Shown: positions 1,847-59,185, counted from the first letter of the stretch. The stretch is DNA of 64,000 bases from a virus (IMGVR_UViG_3300028832_000098:81241-145240); one strand, 5' to 3'. The notes: generated by a model from the sequence alone, not told the origin. Made by a program: numbers and translations.

Positions 1847-2551
1847 TTCATAAATCCAATGATAGCCAGATTTATCAAGTATGAATGCTATGTTCAAAAC
1901 GGTATTCAAAGCACAGTATTCTATCTCTGACTCTTCAGGCTTGTTGCCGAATAAATGTGGAAGCATCTCATCGGTATTGACGATTTTAACTGTAGAACCG
2001 AAATAATCATCCTGTATGCTGTAGTCATTATTCGCAAATTCGTCATAATGAGTTATTTCCATAAGCTCGTCGGCATTCTCCTCTTCATCGCATCTATACG
2101 CGAATTCATAGTTACCAAGCTCTACACCATTCTTAGAACTCTCATTGATAAACTGGCTGTAAGTAAGTAGCTTTGAGCTACCCTCGGTAAAAAGCCTGTC
2201 ATATACGACTTTCACCTTTTCAAGTTCGTCGACAGTAAACTTGAAGATGATATTGACGTACATCTCATCTTTCGTAACATCAACTTGCTCTTTATAATCT
2301 TGCAGAGCAAATACTCCGAATATACTCTGAGCGGCATTATACGCGTCAGACTTGATTTGCTTCAAATCATAATATTCCCGTTGAGGGTCTTCGTGATAAG
2401 ACAAAGTAATCGTCAGGACATCTGACTTGAAGCTGTATGTTTTCTTCGTATAGTAACCAACGATATTCTCAAGGCCTATCGCATCAGATACGACCTTACT
2501 AAGCTCGTCGAGAATATCTTTCATATTTCTGTCATTTATTTTCATAATCAT
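1832..2551 (-). CDS. hypothetical protein
   Basis: 239-aa ORF with no recognisable motifs; its 3' end overlaps the tnpB stop. Confidence 0.4.
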   Translation of the reverse strand: MIMKINDRNMKDILDELSKVVSDAIGLENIVGYYTKKTYSFKSDVLTITLSYHEDPQREYYDLKQIKSDAYNAAQSIFGVFALQDYKEQVDVTKDEMYVNIIFKFTVDELEKVKVVYDRLFTEGSSKLLTYSQFINESSKNGVELGNYEFAYRCDEEENADELMEITHYDEFANNDYSIQDDYFGSTVKIVNTDEMLPHLFGNKPEESEIEYCALNTVLNIAFILDKSGYHWIYELLTN

Positions 2552-3243
2552 AGTTGTTGTTTTAAAATGTAATTAACGGCATCTTTAATAACTTTGCTGG
2601 ATTCATCATACAAATAATCAGTATCATAAAATCCGCCAGTAACAGCATGTACTTCGATATTATAGGCATACTCAGTTTTGGAGAATATGAGAACCCCATT
2701 ATATCTTCCGTTATATGTAATAAGAATCGAGTCTGTCTTATATATCTTAGCTTCATACTTGGCTCTGCCTATATTAAACATTTCAACAAATCTACTGACG
2801 ATATTCAGATATTCAGGCAGCAAATCCTTGATTTCAGGCATTGACTTCATACTTGATTTTTTCTTCTTGTCTTCATCTATGACATTCTGAAGCCATTCAA
2901 GCAATATCTTATACATCTCGTCAGACATCAGTCTTAGTTTGCTTTTATCGGCTACATTTATAATTGTCGTTACGTACTGCAAGCCGTTTTCAAGACGTAT
3001 CATCGCATATATCGGATGCCAATCTTGTTCAGGGTATAACATTACAGACACAACTTTATCGACAGGCTCCAAAAGATTTTTGTCCTTCAGCATTGTCTGC
3101 AGTTCCTCGACCTCTTTTGTTATGACAGAACCATAGGAATCACTTCCGTATTCATCCATCATATTTTCAAGGCTGCTGTCATATTCTTTACGTATGTCTT
3201 TTCCTTCTTTAAGGAACTGATTATATGTCTTTAATTTTTTCAT
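2548..3243 (-). CDS. hypothetical protein with CTS-like N-terminus (MKKLKTYNQFLKEG)
   Basis: 231-aa ORF. The N-terminal peptide matches the family motif M-x-K-L-K-T-[FY]-x-x-F-[IL]-x-E. A conserved leader ACATAAAATTTTTAATGAT lies directly upstream of the ATG. Confidence 0.5.
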   Translation of the reverse strand: MKKLKTYNQFLKEGKDIRKEYDSSLENMMDEYGSDSYGSVITKEVEELQTMLKDKNLLEPVDKVVSVMLYPEQDWHPIYAMIRLENGLQYVTTIINVADKSKLRLMSDEMYKILLEWLQNVIDEDKKKKSSMKSMPEIKDLLPEYLNIVSRFVEMFNIGRAKYEAKIYKTDSILITYNGRYNGVLIFSKTEYAYNIEVHAVTGGFYDTDYLYDESSKVIKDAVNYILKQQL

Positions 3244-3261: not shown

Positions 3262-5169
3262 TTATGCTTCTCCGTATGTTTTCACCTCAACACCAAGAGC
3301 GGCTGCTTTCTTCATTTTTCCGGATGTCGAAGACATATCGTCTGTAAACAGGATTTTACATTGCTTCCAGTCTGATGTCTCTATATATTCAGGATGCGCC
3401 GCAAGGAAAGCTGCCTTGGTAACATATCCGAATTCTTTCGGACTTCCTGTCATAATCACAGGTATCGCCGTCGACGCAGCGGCTGCTTCCGGAGCCATAT
3501 TAACTTTGAACAAATTCGCATACCCAATAATAGTCTGGTATTCCTGAGAATTCTCATCAAGAAGCCATCTCTTGACTTCACCAGGCACGCCTATGAGATG
3601 ATTTGACTTGTCGCCCTTGATAAACTTGGCACAGACATCGGCAGCTACCTTGCCGCACAGACGGAACTGCAGGGCAAGTATGATTTCATTAAGCGTCAGA
3701 GTCTTACGCCTTTCAGTAAGGGCATTTACGATATTCATTATCGATGTCCCTGTTCCGAAACGTTCCTTCATAAAAGCGATTGATTCATCTTTCATAAAGT
3801 CAAGGACATTCTCGATTTTTACATCCTCGCTTGTAAAGAACTCAGGCATAATCTTACGTATCGTCGCCTCTTTGAAATTTCTGATGTTTATCGCCTCAGC
3901 GCCTGCTATTACCTTTATGACAACTTTTTCTTCAGCAGACAAGTCAATCATAAGATGAGGTCCTTTAACGGTCACATTCTCGGTAGGAGCCATATTGTCG
4001 CCTCCGTCTCTTACGATTTCATACACAAAAGGAATTATATCGCCGGCAAGCGAAATCTTAATGATAGAACCAACTCCGACGTTATTGTCCTTAACATATC
4101 CGTAGTTATGCAATGACGCCTTGTTGATGTTCTTTCCGTCCATCTTTATCGTCTTGAACACAGCCTTCGGGAAAAGTTCTCCTGTCTTTCCAACATTCCA
4201 TTCTATCTCCGTGATTTCTGTCTCGAGGATACTTGGTTTGTATTTGATTGCGACGCAGTCGCTCGGACGCTGAACATCTTCCGTCTTGCGGTATTTCACT
4301 TCTGGTTTCAACACGAAGCCGTCAAGAGGGAATTTGTAATCCTTACGAACTTTCTCCATTTCTTCGTAAATCCTCGCGAATTCCATAGGACTGAGTTCTG
4401 ATTTCTTAAAGGTAAGCACATTGTATGCGCATATGTCATAGCCAGGAACCGTATTATAGTCAACCCATTGATATGAGCCTGACGGAGATACAAGCCTGAA
4501 GTCATACACAACTATTGACAAATCTTTCCTTATATCAAGCTGTTCCTGTTTTCCGTCCCATTTCTGACCGAACATGCCAGCAACGAATGCCCTTGTATTC
4601 GCGAATTTATCCTGATAGCCTGCGTTAAAGTCATTAAAGCTTATAAGAGCTTCTCCCCTTACTACGAGCTTCTTGCCTTTCTGCAGGAATTCCTTGTAAG
4701 GTATTTCGTCTACATAAGGACTCAGCCAGTGGCTTACATCCGTACCGTATTCACCATCGCCTCTTGTCGATATTCCTTCAACATTTCCTTCGTCATCGAA
4801 CACCACCTCAAAAGAACATCCGTCGAATTTCGGAGTTACCTCAATGATTCCATCGTCCGGAACATTTTGGAAATACTTGTTAAGGGTATCGATATATGAG
4901 TCAAAATGGGTTTGGCCGTCTGAACCTTCTTTTATCTGTATTTTCGAAAGGCTTCCCATTTTTATCGGATGCTTTACGGTATAATTATCAGAATGATGTG
5001 TACCTATATAGCCCTGATTTTCAAGACCAAGCTTTCTTTCGAGCTCATCAAATTCAGCGTCGCCCATAATGGGGTTGCCATTATAGTATGCGTCTTTCGC
5101 CTTATTGTACAGTTCAAGGTCCTCTTCCCTTGATTCATAAAATTGTTTGAATGTCTTTAAGTGTTCCAT
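3262..5169 (-). CDS. ligA: NAD-dependent DNA ligase (LigA-like) with CTS-like N-terminus (MEHLKTFKQFYES)
   Basis: Adenylation motif KFDGCS (KxDG), TRGDGEYGTDVS (compare LigA TRGDGTTGEDIT), and an N-terminal LigA-like AYYNGNPIMGDAEFDELERKL. The ORF track begins at an upstream TTG; the ATG at 5169 is the likelier start. Confidence 0.8.
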   Translation of the reverse strand: MEHLKTFKQFYESREEDLELYNKAKDAYYNGNPIMGDAEFDELERKLGLENQGYIGTHHSDNYTVKHPIKMGSLSKIQIKEGSDGQTHFDSYIDTLNKYFQNVPDDGIIEVTPKFDGCSFEVVFDDEGNVEGISTRGDGEYGTDVSHWLSPYVDEIPYKEFLQKGKKLVVRGEALISFNDFNAGYQDKFANTRAFVAGMFGQKWDGKQEQLDIRKDLSIVVYDFRLVSPSGSYQWVDYNTVPGYDICAYNVLTFKKSELSPMEFARIYEEMEKVRKDYKFPLDGFVLKPEVKYRKTEDVQRPSDCVAIKYKPSILETEITEIEWNVGKTGELFPKAVFKTIKMDGKNINKASLHNYGYVKDNNVGVGSIIKISLAGDIIPFVYEIVRDGGDNMAPTENVTVKGPHLMIDLSAEEKVVIKVIAGAEAINIRNFKEATIRKIMPEFFTSEDVKIENVLDFMKDESIAFMKERFGTGTSIMNIVNALTERRKTLTLNEIILALQFRLCGKVAADVCAKFIKGDKSNHLIGVPGEVKRWLLDENSQEYQTIIGYANLFKVNMAPEAAAASTAIPVIMTGSPKEFGYVTKAAFLAAHPEYIETSDWKQCKILFTDDMSSTSGKMKKAAALGVEVKTYGEA

Positions 5170-5214: not shown

Positions 5215-5688
5215 TTATTTTTTACAATGATTCTTTACAAAGGTCGCAAATTTTTCTAAGTCATAGTAACGTTTCTGATATATTCCGACAGCACCTACCT
5301 CGTATGTTACATAGACATCTTTGTCTGGAGTAGCGATTCCTGTCAGTTTCTCAGATTGTCTTAACGATGTCTTACTTACGACAGCATAAGTGCTTCGATA
5401 TGAAGTCCATAGACCGAGATATTTATCTATAAGCTCAATCTGTTCGTCGCTGTAACCTTCTTTTCTCAGTCTGACTTTATCCCAAGAAGATACGTGGTAG
5501 TCTTCGAAACCCCAAGCTATTTGAGGTGCTCTAAATTCGCGCTTGTATAATTCTTCACCATTCGGTACGAATATATATCCTCGTTCGCGTTTTCTACTAT
5601 CTTTTTTGACAACATAATCATTGATTTCGTTATCCCAGCCAGAAATAGCTTCATTGATAAAACTTTTGAAAGTCTTTAATTTTTCCAT
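5215..5688 (-). CDS. hypothetical protein with CTS-like N-terminus (MEKLKTFKSFINEA)
   Basis: Start trimmed to the ATG at 5688. The first 14 codons are nearly identical at the DNA level to those of 6892..7740. Confidence 0.5.
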   Translation of the reverse strand: MEKLKTFKSFINEAISGWDNEINDYVVKKDSRKRERGYIFVPNGEELYKREFRAPQIAWGFEDYHVSSWDKVRLRKEGYSDEQIELIDKYLGLWTSYRSTYAVVSKTSLRQSEKLTGIATPDKDVYVTYEVGAVGIYQKRYYDLEKFATFVKNHCKK

Positions 5689-5689
5689 A

Positions 5690-6160
5690 TTATATTTCAG
5701 TTTCGGCACCAAGCCAGTTTGACATCGTTATACGGTTCTTAACGGCAAGAGCTGCTATCCTCGTATGATACTTTTTGTTAATAAATTCGGTTATCGCTGT
5801 AAGTAAGGTATTGTCATTCATCATTTTTTTCATGACCTCTCTTTCGGCATTCGTCCTCGAACCAGACAGTTCAGAACTATAAAAGCTTTCATCTTTAAGC
5901 CTTGCCCTTGCGTCTATGACTATAACGCCATCAGATTTTCTTGAACCTATCCAAATAATTAAACGAGCCTTATCTGTGTCTACTGTATATTTTGAAAGGT
6001 CAAACAAGTATTCAGTATTATTCAGCTTACGCATCTTCTCATCATATTCCTCAACAGATACCTTCCATTTAGGTTCCCATTCAATGATGAGGTTCGTCAA
6101 GTCGTCAAGACTTACGGACTCTTTTAAGAACTTGCTATATGTCAGCAATCCCTTACTCAT
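5690..6160 (-). CDS. hypothetical protein with CTS-like N-terminus (MSKGLLTYSKFLKES)
   Basis: 156-aa ORF tightly packed in the same operon. Confidence 0.45.
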   Translation of the reverse strand: MSKGLLTYSKFLKESVSLDDLTNLIIEWEPKWKVSVEEYDEKMRKLNNTEYLFDLSKYTVDTDKARLIIWIGSRKSDGVIVIDARARLKDESFYSSELSGSRTNAEREVMKKMMNDNTLLTAITEFINKKYHTRIAALAVKNRITMSNWLGAETEI

Positions 6161-6741: not shown

Positions 6742-6891
6742 AATCTTTTAAGCTTTTATATAAAAAACAATATCTACAATCTATTTATGGTTTTCCCGGT
6801 TATTTATATTCAGATTCTATGCGAAGCTACTCGATAAAAAGAAAGTGTCAAAGAATTTCACTCTGACGTTCTCTTTTCATATTGTCTTACT

Positions 6892-7740
6892 TTATTGTTT
6901 TATATCAGGTTTATATTCCTGCTTGATTGGACAATTAACGAACATATCCCTGCATATTACTTCTTTCGAAACATTCCAATTTGAAATATCTTGGTTGAAA
7001 GATTCAGTATAATGAAACATAGCTTCCATATCTTCTACATTTGAAACATCCCAGTTTCCAATTGGCTGATTAAAACATTTTGCAAAACTAAACATGCTTC
7101 TCATATTTTTTACATTTGAGACATCCCAGTTTTCAATTGGTTGATTGAACTTCTCTGCTCTATGGAACATAAAAGGCATATAATAGGCATTTGAAATATT
7201 CCAGTTTCCAATTGGCTGATTGAAGCTTTTTGCAGCACTAAACATACTTCTCATAATTTTGACATTTGAGACATCCCAGTTTTCAATAGATTGGTTGAAC
7301 TTTTCTGCAGCACTAAACATACTTCCCATATCCTCTACATTTGATACATTCCAGTTTCCAATAGGTTGATTGAAACTTTTTGCAGACATAAACATCATTC
7401 CCATATCTTTTACATTTGAAACCTCCCAGTTTTCAATAGATTGATTGAACTTTTCTGCACTACTGAACATTCTTCGCATGTTCGTCACATTACTTGTATC
7501 CCATTGTGATATATCACCATTAAAACTTCTGGCAAATGCAAATAAATGGCTCATATCAGTAATCCTTGATGTGTCAATATCATTAAAGTCACCTTCAAAA
7601 CCTCTCTCCTCTATAAGAGCTTCCATAAGCAATTTCAATTCATCTCTATCTTCAGGATAGTACTTTCCATTATTTTTTCTGAAAGCATTCAAATCAATAC
7701 TTTCTTTGATGAAGCTTTTGAATGTCTTTAATTTTTCCAT
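6892..7740 (-). CDS. DUF285-type (Mycoplasma/Bacteroidota surface 26-residue repeat) protein with CTS-like N-terminus (MEKLKTFKSFIKES)
   Basis: About 8 tandem repeats of FNQPIxNW[DN]VSNVxxMxxMFxxAxxFNQ; preceded by the TTGTTTTTTATATAAAAGC motif. Confidence 0.6.
   Translation of the reverse strand: MEKLKTFKSFIKESIDLNAFRKNNGKYYPEDRDELKLLMEALIEERGFEGDFNDIDTSRITDMSHLFAFARSFNGDISQWDTSNVTNMRRMFSSAEKFNQSIENWEVSNVKDMGMMFMSAKSFNQPIGNWNVSNVEDMGSMFSAAEKFNQSIENWDVSNVKIMRSMFSAAKSFNQPIGNWNISNAYYMPFMFHRAEKFNQPIENWDVSNVKNMRSMFSFAKCFNQPIGNWDVSNVEDMEAMFHYTESFNQDISNWNVSKEVICRDMFVNCPIKQEYKPDIKQ
6930..7578. repeat. Coding tandem repeats (~78 bp units) encoding DUF285 repeats
   Basis: Visible periodic repetition of ...cccagttttcaat[ag]g[ac]ttg[ag]ttgaa... 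units. Confidence 0.7.
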
Positions 7741-7794
7741 ATCTTTTAAGCTTTTATATAAAAAACAATATCTACAATTTATAGTTTTATCAGT

Positions 7795-8820
7795 TTACGC
7801 CTGTTTATAATATTCCTTGTACCATTCAACAAATTTATGCAGGCCTTCCCGTAAATCAGTTTTAGGGAAATATTGATAGTCATGGCCAAGCTTTGAGGTA
7901 TCAGAATACGTGACAGGCACGTCACCAGGCTGCATCTCTACAAATTCAAGATGTTCATCCAGCTTGTAGTTTTCCAGCAGCATTCCGAAATCCCTAAGTT
8001 CCTGATATAATATTGATATGAAATCAATAAGGTTTTCTGGGCGTCCTCTTCCGATATTGTATATGTTGTAAGGTATTCCATTCGATTTATCAGCAGATAT
8101 ATGTCCGCGATAGACAATACTCATAATGCCGTCCGTTATGTCATCGATATAGGTGAAATCCCTCACACAGTTTCCGTTATTAAACACTTTTATGCTCTTG
8201 CCTTTGAGAAGATTGTCGGTAAAACTGAAGTAAGCCATATCAGGCCTGCCTGCAGGTCCGTAGACGGTAAAGAACCTTAACCCTGTCGTAGGTATTCCGT
8301 ATAGCTTGCTGTATGTATGAGCGAACAACTCGTTACTCTTTTTGGTAGCAGCATATAGGCTGACAGGTCCGTCAACCTTGTCAGACTCAGAAAACGGAGT
8401 CTTTGTATTTCCGCCGTAAACCGAACTTGAAGAAGCATATATCAGATGCGTTACAGGATATTTACGACAGGCTTCGAGTATGTTATAGAATCCGATGACA
8501 TTGCTGTTCATATAGGCGTCTGGATTCGTTATACTGTACCTTACCCCAGCTTGAGCGGCAAGATTGATTACGATGTCCGGCTTGTATTCCTCGAATAGTG
8601 AAAAGACATAATCCCTGTTAGATATATCAGACTTTATAAACCGAAAGTTTTCGCTATGTAATGATTTTATCTGGTTCAGCCTGTATTCTTTAAGGCTTAC
8701 GTCATAATAATCATTCATGTTGTCTATACCGATAACATAGACATTTCCTATGTCAAGCAGTCTTTTGACAACATTAGAGCCTATAAATCCGGCAGCGCCT
8801 GTTACAAATACAACGTCCAT
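7795..8820 (-). CDS. NAD-dependent nucleotide-sugar epimerase/dehydratase (SDR family, UDP-sugar 4-epimerase-like)
   Basis: N-terminal Rossmann TGAAGFIGS, catalytic YAATKK (YxxxK), length 341 aa. Confidence 0.8.
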   Translation of the reverse strand: MDVVFVTGAAGFIGSNVVKRLLDIGNVYVIGIDNMNDYYDVSLKEYRLNQIKSLHSENFRFIKSDISNRDYVFSLFEEYKPDIVINLAAQAGVRYSITNPDAYMNSNVIGFYNILEACRKYPVTHLIYASSSSVYGGNTKTPFSESDKVDGPVSLYAATKKSNELFAHTYSKLYGIPTTGLRFFTVYGPAGRPDMAYFSFTDNLLKGKSIKVFNNGNCVRDFTYIDDITDGIMSIVYRGHISADKSNGIPYNIYNIGRGRPENLIDFISILYQELRDFGMLLENYKLDEHLEFVEMQPGDVPVTYSDTSKLGHDYQYFPKTDLREGLHKFVEWYKEYYKQA

Positions 8821-10568
8821 TATTTCTTATGCTGGTTATACGTAAAATACTTCGATTGTCGGACTATCGTCGCTGGAAGGTTGTTTATCTCGAAATCAAG
8901 CTTCCATAAGCAATATCTCAGCGACAGCTGGTCCCTGTAAGAACCTTTAAGAATCTCGTTCGCCCACATTTCATTTACTTTATTGACAGCTTTGTCATTC
9001 TTACGAACTAAAAGATTATTCTCATTCAAGCCGTAATTTTGAGGAAATCCTTCATCGCGGTATCTCTTCATTTGAGCGCTTACGACGTCTTTACTATCAA
9101 TACTGAAACTTGTTACAACATCGCCTTCATCATATAGACAAGTCCTCTTGAAATGAAGCGGTATACTGAATATGTTGTTATCACACACATCCGATATGAA
9201 CTTGACTGGGTCGGTATTGATGGTTATGTTGCCGTCGATATACATAGACCACTCGTGTTCAGGCAAATACTTCTGAGGCATTACCTTTATTATCCTTGAC
9301 TGTTTCTTAGCATCAACCGTCTTAAGCTCGTCAGGTATTTTATGTATTTCCCAGACATAGCTTTTCAGATTGTCATCAGAAAAACAGATATACCTGCATG
9401 CCGGTGAAATAACCTGCGGATTCTTCAGGTCGTCATACCCGTTTATTATGACGGTGTAACAGATATTTTTGCTCCTGTTATTATCCTTATAAAGATTCCT
9501 GAACTTTTCTATGTATTTGCCGTACTTGTTGTAGGTATACATTTTATACATATTGGTAATACCGGCGTCAGACCTGTCACCGAAGTAAGTCCTCGCATTC
9601 CCCGTCAAATTAGAAGAAAGTGTCTCGCTTAAGAAATTCATTCTTATTCCTTTTATACCAAGCAATTTATTTTTAGTCAGCTTGATATTATTCTTTGCAA
9701 AATATTTCTTGCACATCTCACCATTCCAAAAATAGAACGTGCCTGTATAATGTATTCCGTCATTTTTGATGCCGTCAGCCTTCAAGCTGTTCCTTATCAT
9801 ATCGACATCTTTCTTAAACGGTCCGCTCTTTGCGCATGAACTTATCGCTCCATAGGAATAATTATCTTCAAGGGTCTTAAGAGCAGAATCCCATCCGTCC
9901 ATCAGACAGCCTTGGTACATCAAGTAACACCAGTATTTTATGTCGAGTATCTTAGAGGCGTCATTATACTTAGCTCCTTTGAAATGAGAATAGAAAATTA
10001 TGCTGTCAGCCTTGCTAACGAAGTCCAGCATTTTTACCCAGGTTTCAAATTCACCTGTATTCTTGCTATTCTTTCTGAATTCTATTTTAACATCGGCTTT
10101 CCCGTTCTTGGTAAGCTCTTTGATTGATTTTGTTATAAAGTCTCTTGCCTCCTTGGTATCGGTATCAAGCGCGACATTGAAATGTATCTCGTCAAACTTA
10201 TTATCGAAGTCCGCAAGCCACAACATTGAAAAATGGAATTTCTCTAAATCGCTTAATACAAGGTTTGACCTGTCTTTAAACCACCAATGAATGAGATGGA
10301 TTTTCTTCTTGGCGTAAGGATATTTCTTCTTAGGCTTTTTATATTTCCAGATTTCAAGATTTTCAAAAGCCTCTATAATTTTTGGTGTAATCTCATCATT
10401 ATTCCAATCAAGTTTTGGATTACGTATGTTTATCGGCAGTAATGATTTTCTGATAGGCATCGCCTTACCAGAATTACCTTTTTGTGATACAACCGCAAAC
10501 TTTTTATTTACTGGCATCACCGGTTTCTGCGGACTTTTCTTAATAAGTATCTTTGCCCTGTATTTCAT
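8820..10568 (-). CDS. Putative glycosyltransferase (DUF616/TOD1-like C-terminal domain) with a basic N-terminal module shared with 11277..12245
   Basis: C-terminal region TVIINGYDDL...CFSDD...KVMPQKYLPEHEW...SMYIDGN resembles the DUF616 glycosyltransferase-like family. The N-terminal 48 aa MKYRAKILIKKSPQKPVMPVNKKFAVVSQKGNSGKAMPIRKSLLPINI is paralogous to the ATP-grasp protein N-terminus. Confidence 0.5.
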   Translation of the reverse strand: MKYRAKILIKKSPQKPVMPVNKKFAVVSQKGNSGKAMPIRKSLLPINIRNPKLDWNNDEITPKIIEAFENLEIWKYKKPKKKYPYAKKKIHLIHWWFKDRSNLVLSDLEKFHFSMLWLADFDNKFDEIHFNVALDTDTKEARDFITKSIKELTKNGKADVKIEFRKNSKNTGEFETWVKMLDFVSKADSIIFYSHFKGAKYNDASKILDIKYWCYLMYQGCLMDGWDSALKTLEDNYSYGAISSCAKSGPFKKDVDMIRNSLKADGIKNDGIHYTGTFYFWNGEMCKKYFAKNNIKLTKNKLLGIKGIRMNFLSETLSSNLTGNARTYFGDRSDAGITNMYKMYTYNKYGKYIEKFRNLYKDNNRSKNICYTVIINGYDDLKNPQVISPACRYICFSDDNLKSYVWEIHKIPDELKTVDAKKQSRIIKVMPQKYLPEHEWSMYIDGNITINTDPVKFISDVCDNNIFSIPLHFKRTCLYDEGDVVTSFSIDSKDVVSAQMKRYRDEGFPQNYGLNENNLLVRKNDKAVNKVNEMWANEILKGSYRDQLSLRYCLWKLDFEINNLPATIVRQSKYFTYNQHKK

Positions 10569-10619
10569 TTAAAATCTTGGTATTTAATGAATTAACAATT
10601 ACTGTGTATATCTTTATAT

Positions 10620-11261
10620 TTATATTTGCCAAAGTCTCCTTGAAAGATTTACAGCAATATCAACCCTATTATCTTTCCTATAAAAATTACATAAAGGATT
10701 TACAGAATTATATATTTTTATCTGGTCTCTTATACTTTGATTAAACTTAAATTTAAGTTTTGCTTTTTTATAATTGAGATAAAACCTTATATAGGTGTCA
10801 TCTACGCCGGTAGCAATTATATCATTTGGCAATTTTTCCCAAAATGAAGAATCAAATATACTTGACCTATAAATCGCTCTATTGCCTACCAAGCCTGAAT
10901 TGGGACAAAATACATCACAACCTTTAACTTCAGAGACCATCATTTTTATATAGTCGCTGCCGTATAGCAAATCATCGTCTATTGTAAGCAAAAGGTATTC
11001 TTGCCCATAATATTTTTTAAGAACAGGTATAAACTTTTTGAAAGATTTCGTGTTTTCCTTCACCCAGTTTATTTTAAGTAGTCCGTCAGATACTAATTTT
11101 ATCACATCACCTGGTAATTCATTTTCTTTATTTGGAAACTCATCCGTTGATAAGTTCAATTCTACACTGTCAGCTTTTAATGATTGATTCAAAATCGAAT
11201 TGCAGACAGCTGGTACATTTTCTATTCTGTCTTTCCAAGATGTAAATGATACTATAATCAT
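10620..11261 (-). CDS. Putative glycosyltransferase (GT-A-like, DxD)
   Basis: IIVSFTSWKDRIENV...LLTIDDDLLY motif; 213 aa. Weak evidence. Confidence 0.35.
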   Translation of the reverse strand: MIIVSFTSWKDRIENVPAVCNSILNQSLKADSVELNLSTDEFPNKENELPGDVIKLVSDGLLKINWVKENTKSFKKFIPVLKKYYGQEYLLLTIDDDLLYGSDYIKMMVSEVKGCDVFCPNSGLVGNRAIYRSSIFDSSFWEKLPNDIIATGVDDTYIRFYLNYKKAKLKFKFNQSIRDQIKIYNSVNPLCNFYRKDNRVDIAVNLSRRLWQI

Positions 11262-11276
11262 AGCTTATATGACTTA

Positions 11277-12245
11277 TTAAAGTTTCAACATATCTCCTAC
11301 CATTATTTCGTCTTCCTTATTCTTATATCTAAACATTCCAGAACCTGGAGCGAAAGTAAGCTCGCCTAAATAAATTTTACCCTTAATCTCATAAAGGTCG
11401 ACACGTACAAATTTGAAGTCACTTGAAAGAATCTTTGCTATCTCTTTCATCTTCTCGAAACTTTTCGGCTTTGCAAAATCCTTCAAGTCATACTGTATCC
11501 CGTAAAAATTACATACGTTGTCATCCATATCGAAATACAATATGTCTCCATGCCCGTGTCCTGCATTTATCGTGTACAGTTTAGGCTCGCCGTTAAAGCA
11601 CCAAAATTTGTAATCATATAACGATTCCTTCTGCTTCGAGTCAAACATATACTTTTCGGCGTAAGCTTTCCTGACTATATCGTGATAATGCCATTCATAA
11701 TGGTTCTTGACTGCAAAATCTGAATCAAGCCATGACGATAATTTATTTACGGCTTCTGTATAGTCAAGTTTGGATTCATCCTTTACTATAATGTTCATTC
11801 CGCTGCCATGGTTGCATTTCAGAACGAAGCTCTTCGGAAGGCCTTCTAAATCAATGTTCTTACCGTCAAATACCTTCAGAATCGGTATACATATATCCTT
11901 TCCCAATTTTTCTTTACAGTATTCGTGCAAAAGAATCTTATCGGCACATCTCGTTTTCAGTTCCGACAAATCGTTAAGCTTAAGCCATTGTAGCTTATCT
12001 TGTATCGTCTTGGGATTCTTTAGGTCATATTTGCCTTTACACCATTGGATAAATTCCTGTCTTTCATCAAGTACAGGAACTGCTTCAGGTTTAGGGTCAA
12101 CTATGTTTGTCGGCAATGCTGACTTCCTAATAGGCATTGTCTTGTCAGTATTACCTTTCCGTGCCACAACTGCAAACTTATTGTTTGCTGGTATTACCTG
12201 TTTCCTCTGTTTATCCTTAATGAGAATCTTTGACCTGTATTTCAT
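11277..12245 (-). CDS. TupA-like ATP-grasp family protein (amide-bond ligase fold) with shared basic N-terminal module
   Basis: KCNHGSGMNII, YDYKFWCFNGEPKLY, FVRVDLYEIKGKIYLGELTFAPGSG, typical of ATPgrasp_TupA. N-terminus MKYRSKILIKDKQRKQVIPANNKFAVVARKGNTDKTMPIRKSALPTNI. Confidence 0.6.
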   Translation of the reverse strand: MKYRSKILIKDKQRKQVIPANNKFAVVARKGNTDKTMPIRKSALPTNIVDPKPEAVPVLDERQEFIQWCKGKYDLKNPKTIQDKLQWLKLNDLSELKTRCADKILLHEYCKEKLGKDICIPILKVFDGKNIDLEGLPKSFVLKCNHGSGMNIIVKDESKLDYTEAVNKLSSWLDSDFAVKNHYEWHYHDIVRKAYAEKYMFDSKQKESLYDYKFWCFNGEPKLYTINAGHGHGDILYFDMDDNVCNFYGIQYDLKDFAKPKSFEKMKEIAKILSSDFKFVRVDLYEIKGKIYLGELTFAPGSGMFRYKNKEDEIMVGDMLKL

Positions 12246-12259
12246 TTTATCTAATCAAT

Positions 12260-12865
12260 TTAGAAAACGTAATCTTTTTCGTATTCCGAAGGTATTTCAT
12301 ATTCTTCGTTCTCAAGAACGAATTTTATTTTCTTTACTGCAAATGTGCAGTCTATTTTCTGCATATCTATTGCTTTACTTGAATAGTCAAGCTGCGGCGG
12401 CTGGCCTACCTGTGTAAACAGAACTTCAGAAAATTTCAGCCTGTACAATTCAAGGTTCCTGTTATCAAGGAACGTAAGATAAAAAGCCTCAGGCAGATAT
12501 TTCTCGCCGAAATGTGAATAGTAATAGTAACAGATGTCAGCCATTATGAAAAATACGAGGTATCCTTCATCAAGTTTCATAGATACTGTCATCGTTCCTT
12601 CGGAAAGTCCGTGGATACTTACATTGCCTCTGTATTGCCTTTGTACCCTCGAGCCTTGGTCTCCCTGCGTTACCGGTGTCTGCTGTATGCCGAGCGGAAT
12701 CTGCACGCCTTGAATTGCCAGATTAAGAAAATCCCTGACATTATCTACGGGATAGTCAGGGAGTCTCTTAATCAGTGGAGCATATCTCTTAGCTATACTT
12801 TCCGGCACAAACGACGCTGGGAACAAAAATTTGAACCTGTTATTTGAACCTGTTAAGAATGGCAT
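12260..12865 (-). CDS. hypothetical protein
   Basis: 201-aa ORF in the operon; no recognisable motif. Confidence 0.4.
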   Translation of the reverse strand: MPFLTGSNNRFKFLFPASFVPESIAKRYAPLIKRLPDYPVDNVRDFLNLAIQGVQIPLGIQQTPVTQGDQGSRVQRQYRGNVSIHGLSEGTMTVSMKLDEGYLVFFIMADICYYYYSHFGEKYLPEAFYLTFLDNRNLELYRLKFSEVLFTQVGQPPQLDYSSKAIDMQKIDCTFAVKKIKFVLENEEYEIPSEYEKDYVF

Positions 12866-12867
12866 AA

Positions 12868-14370
12868 TTAGATATTTTCTTTCTTTTCACGAATTTTATT
12901 TGTATAGTCTGCAATCAATGCACGAACTTCGTCAAGCTTCTGCTTCTGACCTTTATCCTTAGGATTGAGACCGTCTGTAACATTCATAAGGTTTTCAAGT
13001 ATTTCAAGGTCATGGTCATAAATCATTTTCTTCATTTCGTTCGTTACAGACTTGCTGTTGTAGTCTATAAGTCTTTCACGCATCATAGTCTTCACGTCAA
13101 GCGACGTCCATTTAGACATATCGCTTACCGCCTCGTTGAGGTCTTTGTAGTCTTTCAACATCGACTTGCCCTCACTGACATAGAACACGCAATACTTGTT
13201 CCTGTTGTATTTGCCTTCAAGGAATATAGCTACATTCGAATTGACGTCGTTTGCGAACATCTCAGTCTTGCATACGTCAGATATGTCTTTTATGAACATC
13301 CTGTTTTCTATGAACTCAGACATACGCCTTACGTCAAACTTGACATCAGAAAGAAGGGATGCACGCCTTACAGCCTCTGAAAGAACATATCCGGACAAAT
13401 CTGAATATTCAGCCTCATTGATTGAAAACATGCCGTTGACACCGACTGTTATGACATTGTTATAATATGAAAGCTTTGTACCTTCATTCTTAAACATGCC
13501 TATGCCTTCAAGCACGGTACCGAACCTTATCGTTCTGTTGCTTGATGGCTCGTGGTATTTCAACTGTGTCTCGTGTATGAATTCGTTCGCTTTCTCGAGT
13601 ACATACAACTTATCCTTGATACCAAAAAGAATATCCCCGTTTTCCTTCACCATAACAGGGAGAACATATCTGTCCATTGGTTTCCTGTTACATTCAACAG
13701 GCGCCGGATTGATTTTTTCAAGATATTTCTTTACTATCGGCAACTGTCCGTACCCTTCAAGAATCTTGTCAAGAGGTTTCCTTTCATCGTCATTACGTCC
13801 GATATTGTCTTCTATCTCAGAGCAAAGTCGTTCAACAAATTCGGAATAAAGAGGACTGTTTGCGTATTTACGGCAACCTGCCATAACCCTCATAGCTTCA
13901 ACGGCATAAATGTCGGAAGTTATCAGCTTACGTACCTCCTGAATATAGTCGTTAACGACCTCAACAGACTGACTGTACTCCATAAGCTTCGCTGCGAATT
14001 GTGGAGCAGCTTCGTAAAGTAAGAGACTGTTGTTCTCGATTTTTGACATCGGATACAAACCTTCCAAGAAGCCTAATGTTTCAAGAGCTTTCGCAGCAAA
14101 TAGATTGGAATCCTTTTGCAACGTGTCTCTCAGTTTCTCGTTAAAGCTTCCGAACTGCTGAATCCTTTGGTTGTAATACTTGCGAAAATGGTCGCTCTTG
14201 CCCCATACTTTTTCAAGGACATCATTGATGACTGCCTTGTCATACTGCATGTTTTTCAAAGCGATTTCCGCTACATTCTTTTCAATGCCGCCTGCGAACA
14301 TCTGCATAGCCAAATCGACTATGTTGCCTTGCTCTTTTACCTGCGTTTGTTTTCCAGAATTATTTTCCAT
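12868..14370 (-). CDS. hypothetical protein (500 aa)
   Basis: Long ORF with good coding density; not recognised. Confidence 0.45.
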   Translation of the reverse strand: MENNSGKQTQVKEQGNIVDLAMQMFAGGIEKNVAEIALKNMQYDKAVINDVLEKVWGKSDHFRKYYNQRIQQFGSFNEKLRDTLQKDSNLFAAKALETLGFLEGLYPMSKIENNSLLLYEAAPQFAAKLMEYSQSVEVVNDYIQEVRKLITSDIYAVEAMRVMAGCRKYANSPLYSEFVERLCSEIEDNIGRNDDERKPLDKILEGYGQLPIVKKYLEKINPAPVECNRKPMDRYVLPVMVKENGDILFGIKDKLYVLEKANEFIHETQLKYHEPSSNRTIRFGTVLEGIGMFKNEGTKLSYYNNVITVGVNGMFSINEAEYSDLSGYVLSEAVRRASLLSDVKFDVRRMSEFIENRMFIKDISDVCKTEMFANDVNSNVAIFLEGKYNRNKYCVFYVSEGKSMLKDYKDLNEAVSDMSKWTSLDVKTMMRERLIDYNSKSVTNEMKKMIYDHDLEILENLMNVTDGLNPKDKGQKQKLDEVRALIADYTNKIREKKENI

Positions 14371-15479: not shown

Positions 15480-15524
15480 AACTGCAATTTTGTTTTTATA
15501 TAAAAAACAACGTTTTACCAGAAA

Positions 15525-15557
15525 TCCATAAAAGGTCTTCTTTTTACGGAAGACCTT
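15525..15557 (-). terminator. Intrinsic terminator hairpin (AAGGTCTTC-N8-GAAGACCTT) plus T-run
   Basis: Perfect 9-bp stem; on the minus strand followed by TTTTATGG; 28 nt after the 15585 stop. Confidence 0.55.
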
Positions 15558-16339: not shown

Positions 16340-16403
16340 TTTTGTTTTGTTTTTAGTTGTTTGTACTTGTTTGTATATAAAAAACAACATTTTACAAGAA
16401 ACC

Positions 16404-16441
16404 ACAATAAAAAAGAAGGTCTTCTTTTTACGGAAGACCTT
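16404..16441 (-). terminator. Intrinsic terminator after the major capsid gene (same hairpin as 15532..15557)
   Basis: AAGGTCTTCCGTAAAAAGAAGACCTT followed by CTTTTTTATTG on the minus strand, 26 nt after the MCP stop. Confidence 0.65.
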
Positions 16442-16466
16442 CTTGGTTGTTTCTAACTGTGTTAGA

Positions 16467-18164: not shown

Positions 18165-18272
18165 ATTTTTAAGTTACACTTTTGAAACAATTCACAACAC
18201 CGGAATAAGTTCCTTTCTTTCTTGCTCCGAAGCGTTAGCTTTTATATTTATATTTTTCTAAATTTCCTCATT

Positions 18273-23255: not shown

Positions 23256-23263
23256 TATTTATA
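23256..23263 (-). promoter_or_regulatory. T4-type late promoter -10 element TATAAATA (minus strand) upstream of the sheath gene
   Basis: The exact octamer sits in the conserved context AAAATTATAAATAGAAT, shared with 24768..24775. Confidence 0.45.
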
Positions 23264-24767: not shown

Positions 24768-24775
24768 TATTTATA
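24768..24775 (-). promoter_or_regulatory. T4-type late promoter TATAAATA
   Basis: AAAATTATAAATAGAATAGTAATAC context, 36 nt upstream of the ATG at 24739. Confidence 0.45.
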
Positions 24776-28527: not shown

Positions 28528-28535
28528 TATTTATA
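28528..28535 (-). promoter_or_regulatory. T4-type late promoter TATAAATA
   Basis: TCTATAAATATAATG... upstream of the ATG at 28502, just downstream of the terminator hairpin. Confidence 0.45.
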
Positions 28536-33059: not shown

Positions 33060-33083
33060 CTTGTTTTGTTTACCGTTTTGTTT

Positions 33084-35727: not shown

Positions 35728-35735
35728 TATTTATA
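35728..35735 (-). promoter_or_regulatory. T4-type late promoter TATAAATA
   Basis: TTTTTTTATAAATAGAAAAAGACAGTTCAAATG on the minus strand. Confidence 0.45.
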
Positions 35736-58108: not shown

Positions 58109-58521
58109 TGGAACCATTAAAAACATATTCTGATTTTATAGCGGAAGGCTTACACGATATAGATATTCCTGAGATTCTTTATCATGCGACATTGAAGTCG
58201 AGGTTGAAATCTATCAAAGAGAAAGGACTCGGAGCCAGCAGTAGGAAGATGTGGAGCTTTTCATCGCCGGGCGTGGTATGCCTGACTGATGACGAGAACT
58301 GTGCTTTTGATTTTGTATATGAGAGTGAATATGCAGAAGAGCACGATGTTGATGAAGAAAATATAATTGTCTTGAAAATAAATACAAATAGCCTTGACAA
58401 GAATCTTTTCGTGAAGGATGAGAACTTTAACGCGGACGAAGGTTTTTCGATATGCTACAAAGGAATCATTCCTTTTTCATGTGTTGAGGCTGTTCTGACA
58501 TATAATGACATTGCCCAATAA
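58108..58521 (+). CDS. Small protein with CTS-like N-terminus MEPLKTYSDFIAEG (closest to T4 IPIII MKTYQEFIAE); possible minimal ART-like R/S-x-S/E-x-E arrangement
   Basis: N-terminus seen directly; the ART idea rests only on the spaced KSRL...SFSSPG...ESEYAEE. Confidence 0.45.
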   Translation: MEPLKTYSDFIAEGLHDIDIPEILYHATLKSRLKSIKEKGLGASSRKMWSFSSPGVVCLTDDENCAFDFVYESEYAEEHDVDEENIIVLKINTNSLDKNLFVKDENFNADEGFSICYKGIIPFSCVEAVLTYNDIAQ

Positions 58522-59185
58522 AATGAATATAGTTATTATCGGCCATAATGAAGGAGAGACGATAGAAAGAATGTCAAAAGAGCTTGACAAATTCTTTCTG
58601 AAAGATAAAAAGATATGGGTTCTTGACAGATGTGATGACAATAGCGAAGAGCTATGTCATAAGTTGAGCCTTAACTACATTAAGACTCCGAATACCTGGA
58701 AAGGTAGGATGGTTTCATCTGCAAGAAATCTTGGACTTTCAGTATGTGACAAAGACAGCGACGTTCTTTTCCTTGACGGCGACAGGTATCCGGTTTCCGG
58801 CCATAAAGATTTCCATTTATATAACAGCGACATACTGCTATTCCTTGTAGAGAATGATGAGCGGGATGACCCTAAATGGTTTACAGATTATAGCCAGATA
58901 TATGGACATCTTCATAACGGCTTTTATTCATGCGGTCTGTTTATGAAACGCAGCGCAATAAACAAGGTCCTTGAATTCCAGGGAGAACTGTTCAGTACGG
59001 ATATTGAGAGATTTTGGGGTGTTGAAGACGTACATCTCGGAGATGTTTGCTTTCATCTTGGACTGACTTGCAAGATTCATAAGAAAATGAGACTAAGAGG
59101 CAGTTTCGACAAGGATAAGAGGATACCTTTGGATGCCTGGCGGGCAAGGGTTGCGAAGAGACTGCCTCTAAACATTATCTGGTAA
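58505..59185 (+). CDS. Putative glycosyltransferase (GT-A fold, DxD)
   Basis: NIVIIGHNEGETI...VLFLDGDRYP. Confidence 0.45.
   Translation: MTLPNKMNIVIIGHNEGETIERMSKELDKFFLKDKKIWVLDRCDDNSEELCHKLSLNYIKTPNTWKGRMVSSARNLGLSVCDKDSDVLFLDGDRYPVSGHKDFHLYNSDILLFLVENDERDDPKWFTDYSQIYGHLHNGFYSCGLFMKRSAINKVLEFQGELFSTDIERFWGVEDVHLGDVCFHLGLTCKIHKKMRLRGSFDKDKRIPLDAWRARVAKRLPLNIIW

What the first reader, a model, noticed from the sequence alone, without database searches (positions are those of the whole stretch)
7795..12865. Sugar-nucleotide / ATP-grasp enzyme cluster with a shared basic N-terminal module: candidate DNA (or glycan) hypermodification system
Four adjacent genes in one operon encode a UDP-sugar epimerase/dehydratase (SDR), a DUF616-like putative glycosyltransferase, a small DxD glycosyltransferase-like protein and a TupA-like ATP-grasp ligase. 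The DUF616 protein and the ATP-grasp protein, which are unrelated enzymes, both begin with the same ~48-aa Lys/Arg-rich module: MKYR[AS]KILIK.K..K.V.P.N.KFAVV..KGN..K.MPIRKS.LP.NI. A common polycationic domain on two different catalytic domains suggests they are delivered to the same polyanionic substrate or partner, for example DNA. T4-like phages classically glycosylate their DNA. An ATP-grasp could add an amino-acid or amine moiety to a sugar or a base. Another GT-A-like gene sits at 58505..59185.
Basis: inference. Interest (0 to 1): 0.7.

Follow-up and report, generated by a model that had tools for sequence, protein, structure and literature searches.

The report
Phage uronic-acid glycan cassette, shared tag
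A jumbo phage of Bacteroidota-type bacteria carries a four-gene set that most likely builds a sugar chain containing an amide-decorated uronic acid, and two of its enzymes share a short, strongly basic N-terminal tag. The target of the sugar chain is unknown, and the evidence leans against DNA.

Summary
Four tightly packed minus-strand genes encode an SDR closest to UDP-glucuronate 4-epimerases, a 582-aa protein (basic tail, unannotated alpha/beta domain, TOD1/MUCI70 glycosyltransferase domain), a 213-aa KfiA/heparosan-synthase-like GT-A enzyme and a TupA-like ATP-grasp. The 582-aa protein and the ATP-grasp share a 52-aa tag: 65% identity, net charge +14 and +11, dN/dS 0.29. An exhaustive search of 1.84 billion proteins found the tag only in this phage lineage.

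The DNA-hypermodification reading is not supported, but it is not excluded. All four enzyme families point to uronic-acid glycan chemistry. The one characterised TupA-like enzyme found in the literature search (C. jejuni Cj1438) amidates glucuronate in a capsule. MUCI70 is a UDP-GalA transferase. ATP-grasp plus GT213 and/or TOD1 is a recurrent cassette in 36 of 53 viral contigs, often fused into capsule-polymerase-like multi-GT proteins. No thymidylate-synthase-like hydroxymethylase lies in the window or near any cassette.

A T4-like late-promoter motif sits just upstream of the 582-aa gene. The acceptor is probably a protein or envelope glycan. The tag probably recruits two enzymes that are fused in other phages to one place. 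This is a new variant of a known kind, of moderate interest.

The parts
7795..8820 (-). Extended SDR, most likely a UDP-glucuronate/galacturonate 4-epimerase that supplies a UDP-uronic acid donor. It carries no tag.
   Evidence: Pfam Epimerase 1e-55. It is 62% identical to PDB 5u4q (5e-101). The next best hit is B. cereus UDP-GlcA 4-epimerase 6zl6/6zld (2e-45). True RmlB enzymes reach only about 1e-32. It falls below the NCBIfam cut-offs for RmlB and GalE. GxxGxxG and YxxxK motifs are present in the sequence.
8820..10568 (-). 582-aa three-part protein: basic tag, unannotated alpha/beta domain and TOD1/MUCI70 (DUF616, GT116-like) GT-A domain.
   Evidence: Its stop overlaps the SDR start by 1 nt.
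10413..10568 (-). Tag copy 1 (aa 1-52 of the 582-aa protein), net charge +14, predicted disordered.
   Evidence: BLASTP 8e-18 against copy 2. pLDDT is about 30 for aa 1-61. Ortholog dN/dS is 0.057, as constrained as the catalytic part at 0.08.
9534..10385 (-). Conserved alpha/beta domain of unknown family (about aa 62-345), found only in this phage group.
   Evidence: There are 13 homologues with many invariant His and aromatic positions. The domain has no Pfam match and no profile match to the GT213 family. No hit was found in 53 other cassette loci. pLDDT is 80-95 with a beta-alpha-beta pattern.
8823..9491 (-). TOD1/MUCI70 GT-A domain (about aa 360-582), putative uronic-acid (GalA) transferase.
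   Evidence: Pfam PF04765 5e-16, PHROG 26101 3e-25. It is 33% identical to stand-alone TOD1 genes next to ATP-grasp genes in other phages. MUCI70 is RGGAT1, a UDP-GalA transferase (PMC10576798, PMC13010939).
10617..10624 (-). TATAAATA motif (T4 late-promoter consensus) 49-56 nt upstream of the 582-aa gene.
   Evidence: The window has 18 copies against 7.5 expected. Eight lie upstream of minus-strand genes, including those for the capsid protein and the sheath. The motif is conserved in relative L002.
10620..11261 (-). 213-aa GT-A glycosyltransferase, KfiA/PmHS2 (GT45)-like. It is probably the transferase that extends from the (amidated) uronic acid.
11277..12245 (-). TupA-like ATP-grasp amidoligase with an added N-terminal tag.
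   Evidence: PF14305 1e-40, aa 84-321. Thousands of homologues at 55-64% identity are about 275 aa long and lack the tag.
12090..12245 (-). Tag copy 2 (aa 1-52 of the ATP-grasp), net charge +11.
   Evidence: Ortholog dN/dS is 0.335 against 0.072 for the catalytic part. The native N-terminus of the enzyme (..EFIQWCKGKYDLKNPKTIQDK) is retained behind the tag.
12260..14370 (-). Co-transcribed 500-aa and 201-aa proteins of unknown function. They sit directly upstream of the glycosyltransferase in close relatives.
   Evidence: The same order is seen in L002, L005 and L016. Neither has a family or PDB match. The 201-aa homologue in Tenacibaculum phage PTm1 lies next to DNA polymerase genes.
58505..59185 (+). 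Separate GT2-family glycosyltransferase among putative tail-fibre/baseplate genes.
   Evidence: Pfam Glycos_transf_2 2.6e-06, 27.9 bits against 23.3. 'Weak' in the precomputed table.

Best explanation
This is a phage-encoded, soluble, cytoplasmic cassette for building or decorating a glycan. The glycan contains a hexuronic acid whose carboxylate is amidated.

Proposed steps:
1. The SDR epimerises host UDP-GlcA to UDP-GalA (inferred).
2. The TOD1/MUCI70 domain of the 582-aa protein transfers the uronic acid to an acceptor (inferred).
3. The TupA-like ATP-grasp uses ATP to ligate an amine (an amino acid or an amino-alcohol phosphate) to the C6 carboxylate (inferred from Cj1438).
4. The KfiA-like 213-aa GT-A enzyme adds the next sugar onto that residue (inferred).

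The acceptor is a macromolecule available in the cytoplasm late in infection. It is most likely a virion protein or a host lipid-linked envelope glycan, not DNA.

The 52-aa polycationic, disordered tag arose on the glycosyltransferase and was duplicated onto an ATP-grasp acquired by transfer. It acts as a common recruitment or assembly handle. It brings together two enzymes that are covalently fused in other phages, at an anionic partner or with each other.
For: Shown by tool results:
- Family assignments are given.
- All proteins lack transmembrane segments.
- The tag is significantly similar between the two proteins and under purifying selection (dN/dS 0.29 between paralogs, 0.057 for the GT582 copy).
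- The tag is predicted disordered.
- In 1.84 billion representative proteins the tag occurs in only these two protein clusters.
- Divergent orthologs P0003 and P0012/13 also start M[KL]YR[ST] with basic tails, so the tag's original home is the glycosyltransferase.
- Related phages L005 and L001 have the glycosyltransferase but no ATP-grasp, GT213 or SDR, so the cassette was added later.
- The triad of ATP-grasp, GT213 homolog (49% identity) and TOD1 (33% identity) is conserved in unrelated phage contigs.
- In IMG/VR, 36 of 53 loci with the ATP-grasp have GT213 and/or TOD1 within 10 kb, and 6 have the SDR.
- Fusion proteins exist: ATP-grasp+GT213 (P0029, P0066), ATP-grasp+TOD1 (L020), GT2_4+GT2+ATP-grasp (L034), and a 1118-aa three-glycosyltransferase protein (L033).
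- A TATAAATA motif lies upstream of GT582, as it does upstream of the capsid and sheath genes.

From the literature:
- The Cj1438 TupA-like domain amidates GlcA C6, and its fused GT2 requires the amidated uronate as acceptor (PMC11800379).
- MUCI70/RGGAT1 uses UDP-GalA (PMC10576798, PMC13010939).
- TupA-like enzymes are predicted to add amino acids to surface polymers (PMC13419641).
- Epimerase plus glycosyltransferase clusters in jumbo phages are read as capsule/LPS modification (PMC7824862).
Against: - No enzyme activity, donor or acceptor has been shown. Substrate assignments rest on family analogy at 9-62% identity.
- The cluster has no lipid-carrier priming enzyme, flippase or ABC exporter, so it is not a complete polysaccharide pathway.
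- No candidate acceptor gene co-occurs across loci.
- The 280-aa middle domain of the 582-aa protein has no assignable function.
- PDB 5u4q, the closest SDR structure, is labelled dTDP-glucose 4,6-dehydratase by its depositors.
- Reading TATAAATA as a late promoter is an analogy with T4.
- Context is mixed. The 201-aa neighbour lies next to DNA polymerase genes in PTm1. The cassette is next to a nucleoside 2-deoxyribosyltransferase-like gene in L012/L013 and fused to one in P0114.
Confidence: 0.6

Rival explanations
1. DNA hypermodification. The glycosyltransferases attach a uronic-acid-containing glycan to a hydroxylated or hydroxymethylated pyrimidine in phage DNA. The ATP-grasp amidates the glycan. 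The polycationic tag holds both enzymes on DNA.
For: - The tag carries +11 to +14 net charge, is disordered, and occurs only on the two enzymes that would act on the polymer, not on the SDR.
- Neighbours include a DNA ligase, a 201-aa protein that lies next to DNA polymerase genes in PTm1, DUF4406 nucleoside-deoxyribosyltransferase-like genes, and an SNF2 helicase in L011.
Against: - No ThyA-like gene was found at E<=10 in 1.25 Mb of sequence: the window, its 9-kb extension and 71 related loci. The probe was validated.
- No TET/JBP, DNA methyltransferase or hydroxymethylase Pfam hit was found among window ORFs of 130 aa or more.
- Known DNA-modification pathways are usually clustered (10.1101/2023.12.21.572611).
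- The closest architectures are capsule polymerases with up to three glycosyltransferase domains plus an amidoligase.
- A late-type promoter motif precedes GT582.
Confidence: 0.17
2. The shared tag has no targeting function on the ATP-grasp. It is a scar of how the ATP-grasp/GT213 cassette was inserted behind the first 52 codons of the resident glycosyltransferase gene, with duplication of the gene's 5' end.
For: - Relatives without the cassette have the glycosyltransferase directly after the 201-aa gene, where the tagged ATP-grasp now sits.
- The two copies are direct repeats that flank exactly the inserted segment.
- The ATP-grasp copy evolves about five times less constrained than its catalytic domain, with dN/dS 0.335 against 0.072.
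- Thousands of homologues work without any tag.
Against: - dN/dS is still well below 1 for both the paralog pair (0.29, at dS 0.73) and the ATP-grasp copy.
- The reading frame, all 14 basic residues and the hydrophobic positions are kept.
- Similarity starts at the ATG, so no promoter or ribosome-binding site was co-duplicated.
- The complete native N-terminus of the enzyme is retained behind the tag.
Confidence: 0.2
3. The tag is a virion-packaging signal. Both enzymes are loaded into the head, like T4 Alt or the internal proteins, and are injected to act early in the next infection.
For: - The phage has a T4 gp21-type prohead protease and clearly uses N-terminal addressing peptides.
- I-x-E and L-x-E sites follow the tags, at aa 63-65 and 59-61.
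- The genes appear to be expressed late.
Against: - At least seven other ORFs carry a recognisable T4-like capsid-targeting consensus, (M..LKT[FY]..F[IL].E), against 0 in shuffles. The two enzymes do not carry it.
- The putative cleavage sites are not conserved in P0003 or P0012.
- The SDR and GT213, which are needed for the same pathway, carry no tag.
Confidence: 0.08
4. The cassette makes a small molecule, for example a peptidyl-nucleoside or glycoside metabolite built from a UDP-uronic acid, rather than decorating a polymer.
For: - In another phage lineage the ATP-grasp is translationally coupled to, or fused with, a nucleoside 2-deoxyribosyltransferase-like DUF4406 protein.
- No acceptor or export genes are present.
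- From my own knowledge: cytosyl-glucuronic-acid antibiotics use a nucleotide hydrolase of that family, a glycosyltransferase and amide-forming ligases.
Against: - This window has no DUF4406 gene.
- Multi-glycosyltransferase fusion proteins are typical of polymerising enzymes.
- A shared polycationic tail makes little sense for enzymes that act on a soluble small molecule.
Confidence: 0.05

Closest known systems
Campylobacter jejuni HS:2 capsule enzymes Cj1438/Cj1434/Cj1432 (polymerising glycosyltransferases with a TupA-like amidoligase)
   Same: A TupA-like ATP-grasp is genetically or physically coupled to GT-A transferases. The chemistry is centred on a uronic acid whose C6 carboxylate is amidated before the next sugar is added (PMC11800379). 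The same fusion logic is seen in phage homologues.
   Different: The phage cluster has no KpsMT/KpsCS export or anchoring genes and lies in a virus. Its partner transferases are TOD1/MUCI70 and KfiA-like rather than Cj1438-type GT2. Sequence relatedness to Cj1438 itself was not measured. The basic tag has no counterpart.
Jumbo-phage 'capsular polysaccharide modification' gene clusters (Iyer et al. 2021, PMC7824862)
   Same: NAD-dependent epimerase/dehydratase plus one or more polymorphic glycosyltransferase genes in jumbo phages, variable between close relatives.
   Different: That survey does not mention TupA-like ATP-grasp enzymes. Its ATP-grasp mentions concern RNA ligases and the R2K family. 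It also does not describe shared tags. A host-surface target is equally unproven here.
Virus-encoded cytoplasmic protein glycosylation (chlorovirus PBCV-1 A064R and giant-virus multi-GT proteins; mycobacteriophage virion glycosylation, the latter from my own knowledge)
   Different: No glycosylated virion protein has been identified. Amidated uronic acids are not, to my knowledge, part of those glycans.
Phage DNA glycosylation systems (T4 alpha/beta-GT; 5hmC and 5-hydroxycytosine glycan clusters)
   Same: Phage-encoded glycosyltransferases, including GT-A types related to TarP, sometimes with epimerases and secondary transferases (10.1101/2023.12.21.572611, PMC13326640).
   Different: No ThyA-like or 5mYOX gene was found nearby. 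No ATP-grasp or uronic-acid chemistry is reported in those systems.
T4 capsid targeting sequence on internal proteins
   Same: A short N-terminal peptide shared by otherwise unrelated proteins of one phage acts as an address. This phage has such a system.
   Different: The MKYR..KILIK tag is five times longer, polybasic, lacks the CTS consensus, and is restricted to two glycan enzymes.

Membership tests
TupA-like ATP-grasp amidoligases (Pfam PF14305) | Full-length match to the family profile above the curated cut-off | tested here: met
   140.3 bits against 25, profile positions 2-241 of 241.
TupA-like ATP-grasp amidoligases (Pfam PF14305) | Conserved core residues retained relative to homologues | tested here: met
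   67 invariant columns across 16 homologues, all present in the window protein, for example K143, H146, R281, D283 and E295. Their catalytic roles were not assigned here.
TupA-like ATP-grasp amidoligases (Pfam PF14305) | ATP-dependent amidation of a uronic-acid carboxylate | not testable with these tools
   Known for Cj1438C only (PMC11800379).
TOD1/MUCI70 = DUF616 glycosyltransferases (CAZy GT116) | Profile match above the cut-off | tested here: met
   59.3 bits against 21.4, but only profile positions 119-290 of 314. PHROG 26101 3e-25.
TOD1/MUCI70 = DUF616 glycosyltransferases (CAZy GT116) | GT-A (nucleotide-diphospho-sugar transferase) fold | tested here: met
TOD1/MUCI70 = DUF616 glycosyltransferases (CAZy GT116) | UDP-GalA as donor | not testable with these tools
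   Shown only for plant RGGAT1 (PMC13010939).
UDP-glucuronate 4-epimerase (extended SDR) | GxxGxxG NAD site and YxxxK catalytic pair | tested here: met
   GAAGFIG at aa 8-14 and Y-AAT-K within 'SLYAATKK' in the translation. Aligned with 5u4q and 6zl6.
UDP-glucuronate 4-epimerase (extended SDR) | Closest characterised relatives are uronate 4-epimerases rather than dehydratases or GalE | tested here: inconclusive
   Among chains identified in papers, the best is B. cereus UDP-GlcA 4-epimerase (2e-45; PMC10107529, PMC11519531). The top hit 5u4q (62% identity) is labelled a dehydratase by its depositors. RmlB and GalE NCBIfam cut-offs are not reached: 176 against 365 bits and 134 against 262 bits.
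KfiA / heparosan-synthase type GT-A (GT45-like) for the 213-aa protein | GT-A fold with an acidic DxD-type motif | tested here: met
KfiA / heparosan-synthase type GT-A (GT45-like) for the 213-aa protein | Sequence-level family membership | tested here: not met
   No Pfam, PHROG or NCBIfam hit. Only 15-19% identity in the structural alignments. It works like these enzymes but cannot be filed as a member.
Phage DNA glycosyl-hypermodification pathway | An enzyme that creates the acceptor base (ThyA-like hydroxymethylase/hydroxylase, or C5-MT plus 5mYOX), usually clustered with the glycosyltransferase | tested here: inconclusive
   None in the window or its 9-kb extension. No ThyA-like ORF in 72 sequences totalling 1.25 Mb. 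About 174 kb of the 238-kb genome could not be read, and 5mYOX was not probed in the related loci.
Phage DNA glycosyl-hypermodification pathway | Modified nucleosides in virion DNA | not testable with these tools
   Needs LC-MS.
Complete capsule/O-antigen biosynthesis locus | Priming enzyme, lipid anchor and exporter (Wzx/Wzy or ABC transporter) | tested here: not met
   No such genes in the operon, and no transmembrane segments in any of its proteins. A bacterial GT213 homologue does lie in an ABC-transporter cluster.
T4-type capsid targeting sequence | N-terminal M..LKT[FY]..F[IL].E consensus ending in a gp21 (L/I)xE site | tested here: not met
   The pattern matches 7 other ORF starts in the window (0 in shuffles), but not the two tagged enzymes.

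The most novel reading that the evidence does not exclude
The phage decorates its DNA with a glycan carrying an amino-acid- or amine-amidated galacturonic acid. This would be a chemistry not reported for any DNA. The 52-aa polycationic tail would be the device that converts capsule-type enzymes into DNA-acting enzymes. More broadly, the ATP-grasp/GT213/TOD1 cassette found in dozens of huge gut and rumen phages would mark a widespread, undescribed class of DNA hypermodification.
Probability: 0.15. Interest if true: 0.85.

Novelty: new variant of a known kind. Interest (0 to 1): 0.5.

Why it matters
Phage-encoded glycan machinery is known in outline. A recurrent cassette that combines a uronic-acid amidoligase with KfiA-like and MUCI70-like transferases did not appear in the literature I could search. 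A search for TupA-like ATP-grasp together with phage returned 0 papers.

The cassette occurs in at least 36 IMG/VR contigs, many of 200-670 kb, and in abundant gut-phage contigs. Its target is therefore a real open question about large phages of Bacteroidota-rich habitats: virion shielding, host-capsule remodelling or DNA protection.

The tag is a compact and testable case of a phage re-addressing a horizontally acquired enzyme by copying 52 codons from a resident gene. It sits in the same genome as a separate, T4-like capsid-targeting code.

Tried and rejected
- Megablast of the region against 50,697 phage records gave no match.
- tblastn of the ATP-grasp against phage isolates gave only four weak hits, so no studied isolate carries the cassette.
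- An exhaustive HMM search with the tag returned only its own lineage plus two repeat-protein artefacts, P0159 and P0160.
- A degenerate DNA pattern for the tag start in IMG/VR gave one chance hit that was not at an ORF start. The exact DNA pattern gave none.
- Attempts to read the genome beyond the window gained only about 9 kb on one side. The other assembly ends at an IS element.
- The middle domain of the 582-aa protein has no Pfam hit at E<=5 and no hhalign relation to the GT213 family. A profile of the whole-protein alignment (A3) found no significant PDB sequence match.
- The ATP-grasp, the 201-aa protein and the 500-aa protein have no PDB sequence match.
- The afdb50 fold library was unavailable.
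- A membrane amphipathic-helix reading of the tag was considered and judged unlikely. It has six prolines, a low helical hydrophobic moment and no hydrophobic stretch.
- A signal-peptide reading was rejected for the same reason.
- A CTS reading of the tag was rejected.
- Clustering of all ORFs within 7 kb of the cassette in 56 loci found no further conserved partner.

Full report
**1. What is there**

The minus strand of 6.8-14.4 kb carries a tight gene array:
- a 500-aa ORF (12868-14370);
- a 201-aa ORF (12260-12865);
- an ATP-grasp (11277-12245);
- a 213-aa ORF (10620-11261);
- a 582-aa ORF (8820-10568);
- an SDR (7795-8820, its start overlapping the previous stop by one base);
- a DUF285 protein (6892-7740).

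The SDR matches Epimerase at 1e-55. The 582-aa protein matches TOD1_MUCI70/DUF616 in aa 396-558. The ATP-grasp matches ATPgrasp_TupA over aa 84-321.

The 582-aa protein has three parts:
- a disordered tail (pLDDT about 30, aa 1-61);
- a well-predicted alpha/beta domain (aa 62-345) with no detectable family;
- the TOD1 GT-A domain.

None of the proteins has a membrane segment.

**2. The shared module**

The first 52 residues of the 582-aa protein and of the ATP-grasp are 65% identical (E 8e-18). At the DNA level they are 76% identical, and the similarity begins at the ATG and ends at codon 52. Net charge is +14 and +11. There are only two copies in the window.

A profile of the tag was scored against 1.84 billion representative proteins. 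It found only the two clusters that hold these proteins, plus two repeat-protein artefacts. The tag is therefore specific to this lineage and, as far as that library shows, to these two enzymes.

It is a selected protein element:
- dN/dS is 0.29 between the paralogous copies.
- dN/dS is 0.057 for the glycosyltransferase copy between this phage and its relative L002. That is as low as the catalytic part (0.08).
- dN/dS is 0.335 for the ATP-grasp copy, against 0.072 for its catalytic part.

Divergent orthologs of the glycosyltransferase (P0003, P0012/13) also begin M[KL]YR[ST] and have basic tails. Thousands of ATP-grasp homologues at 55-64% identity are about 275 aa long and have no tag. In the window protein the complete native N-terminus is still present behind the tag.

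Relatives L005 and L001 have the glycosyltransferase directly after the 201-aa gene and lack the ATP-grasp, GT213 and SDR. The simplest history is this. An ATP-grasp/GT213 cassette was acquired and inserted at the 5' end of the resident glycosyltransferase gene. The first 52 codons were duplicated so that both enzymes carry the tail.

**3. What kind of phage**

The source contig is 238,631 bp. The window holds a capsid protein, a Peptidase_S77 (T4 gp21-type) protease, a sheath, a portal and gp13/gp25-like proteins. The capsid protein is about 30% identical to those of Lak/Prevotella megaphages, Tenacibaculum phages and huge uncultured phages. This is a jumbo myovirus, probably of a Bacteroidota host.

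**4. Chemistry**

Every enzyme in the cluster points to uronic-acid glycans.
- The SDR is 62% identical to PDB 5u4q. Its next best hit is B. cereus UDP-GlcA 4-epimerase. It is far from true RmlB and below the RmlB and GalE equivalog cut-offs (PMC10107529).
[quoted passage not shown] - KfiA and PmHS2 add GlcNAc to a glucuronate acceptor (my own knowledge).
- The TupA-like domain of C. jejuni Cj1438 forms an amide on the C6 carboxylate of GlcA in the capsule. The GT2 domain fused to it accepts only the amidated uronate (PMC11800379).

The window's ATP-grasp and GT213 are adjacent. Their homologues are fused in P0029 and P0066.

**5. The cassette elsewhere**

ATP-grasp homologues without the tag lie in phage-like contigs, in a conserved triad with a GT213 homologue (49% identity) and a stand-alone TOD1 gene (33% identity).

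IMG/VR yielded 53 loci with the ATP-grasp:
- 36 have GT213 and/or TOD1 within 10 kb.
- 6 have a close SDR homologue.
- 6 have capsid or portal genes nearby. In L034/L055 the cassette lies between portal and capsid genes.

Many of the proteins are fusions: ATP-grasp+TOD1, GT2_4+GT2+ATP-grasp, GT92+GT2+GT213, and GT2+TOD1. This is the architecture of polymerising capsule glycosyltransferases.

The two proteins that carry the tag here, the ATP-grasp and the TOD1 protein, are fused into one chain in L020. This supports reading the tag as a non-covalent substitute for fusion, or as a common address.

A bacterial GT213 homologue is the C-terminal domain of a GT2 protein inside an ABC-transporter polysaccharide cluster of a Bacteroidia MAG. 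No other gene family co-occurs with the cassette.

**6. DNA or not**

Against DNA:
- No ThyA-like ORF was found, even at E<=10, in the window, its extension and 71 loci totalling 1.25 Mb. The probe is exact E. coli ThyA.
- No TET/JBP, methyltransferase or hydroxymethylase family was found among window ORFs.
- Known DNA-glycosylation pathways are usually clustered with such enzymes (10.1101/2023.12.21.572611).
- TATAAATA, the T4 late-promoter consensus, is enriched in the window: 18 copies against 7.5 expected, with 0 of 100 shuffles reaching 18. It lies upstream of the capsid, sheath and other structural genes, and 49-56 nt upstream of the 582-aa gene. It is conserved there in L002. In L005 it precedes the 497aa-201aa-GT operon.

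For DNA:
- The tail is polycationic.
- GT-A enzymes related to TarP do glycosylate DNA (same preprint).
- There are replication-type neighbours: DNA ligase; the 201-aa homologue next to DNA polymerase genes in PTm1; and DUF4406 and SNF2 neighbours in other lineages.

About 174 kb of the genome could not be inspected. I put the DNA reading at about 0.15-0.2.

**7. Verdict**

The enzymology is best read as a capsule-polymerase-like cassette for an amidated uronic-acid glycan, expressed late from soluble enzymes. The acceptor is unresolved.

My estimates for the acceptor are:
- virion protein, roughly one third;
- host envelope glycan built on the cytoplasmic face, roughly one third;
- DNA, about one sixth;
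- small molecule or other, the remainder.

The tag is real, selected and unique. It is most likely a recruitment or assembly handle copied from the resident glycosyltransferase onto a newly acquired enzyme.

This is a new variant of a known kind, phage glycan cassettes. Interest is moderate because the cassette is widespread in very large phages, undescribed, and directly testable.

Noticed in passing
window 2548-3243(-), 5215-5688(-), 5690-6160(-), 6892-7740(-), 44635-45396(+), 46746-47117(+), 58108-58521(+); looser matches 3262-5169(-) and 45498-45953(+): At least seven ORFs begin with a motif like MEKLKTFKSFIKE or MEPLKTYSDFIAE, against 0 matches in 50 shuffles. From my own knowledge, this closely resembles the T4 internal-protein capsid targeting sequence MKTYQEFIAE, which ends in a gp21 (L/I)xE cleavage site. 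The phage has a Peptidase_S77 protease. A looser form is on the NAD-dependent DNA ligase, which would imply that the ligase is packaged in the head. The same motif is seen in relatives L001 and L002.
   Followed up: partly
window, for example 18245-18252(-), 23256-23263(-), 24768-24775(-), 28528-28535(-), 35728-35735(-), 10617-10624(-), 6801-6808(-): TATAAATA, the T4 late-promoter consensus, occurs 18 times against 7.5 expected. Most copies lie in intergenic DNA 20-100 nt upstream of structural genes. This suggests a gp55-type late transcription system in a Bacteroidota jumbo phage.
   Followed up: partly
window 6754-6770, 7752-7768, 15494-15510, 16371-16387, 33082-33098 (all minus strand): A second conserved 17-nt intergenic motif, TTGTTTWTTATATAAAA, occurs five times against 0 expected. 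Each copy lies just upstream of a gene start, two of them directly after hairpin terminators. It is possibly another promoter class.
   Followed up: no
window 16413-16444 and 15532-15557: The same G+C-rich hairpin (AAGGTCTTC...GAAGACCTT) occurs twice. The first copy is directly after the capsid gene and is followed by a T-run. It is a likely strong terminator reused in the region.
   Followed up: no
window 650-1846(+) and 39158-40417(-): Two divergent IS200/IS605-type TnpB (OrfB, Cas12f-like TNB) genes lie inside the phage genome, 23% identical to each other. A second assembly of the same phage ends at the first one, next to a Y1 transposase fragment.
   Followed up: partly
window 18273-20228(-): The prohead protease gene encodes 651 aa. 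The S77 protease domain occupies only the first 190 residues or so. The long C-terminal part may be a fused scaffold.
   Followed up: no
L012 7710-8822; L013 5509-6621; protein P0114: In an abundant gut-phage lineage, the tag-less ATP-grasp abuts a DUF4406 (nucleoside 2-deoxyribosyltransferase-like) gene with no gap between the DUF4406 stop and the ATP-grasp start. In P0114 the two are fused. The link is unexplained and could bear on the nature of the substrate.
   Followed up: partly
L006 9147-12400: In a related phage, the homologous glycosyltransferase carries an extra N-terminal RgpF (rhamnan synthesis) domain and follows a NeuB-like sialic-acid-synthase gene. The glycan locus is therefore highly polymorphic between relatives.
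   Followed up: no
window 31589-32398(-): An SPFH/Band-7 protein with a lipoprotein-like N-terminus (MKKVLLLFAVIATMFASC) is encoded among the structural genes.
   Followed up: no
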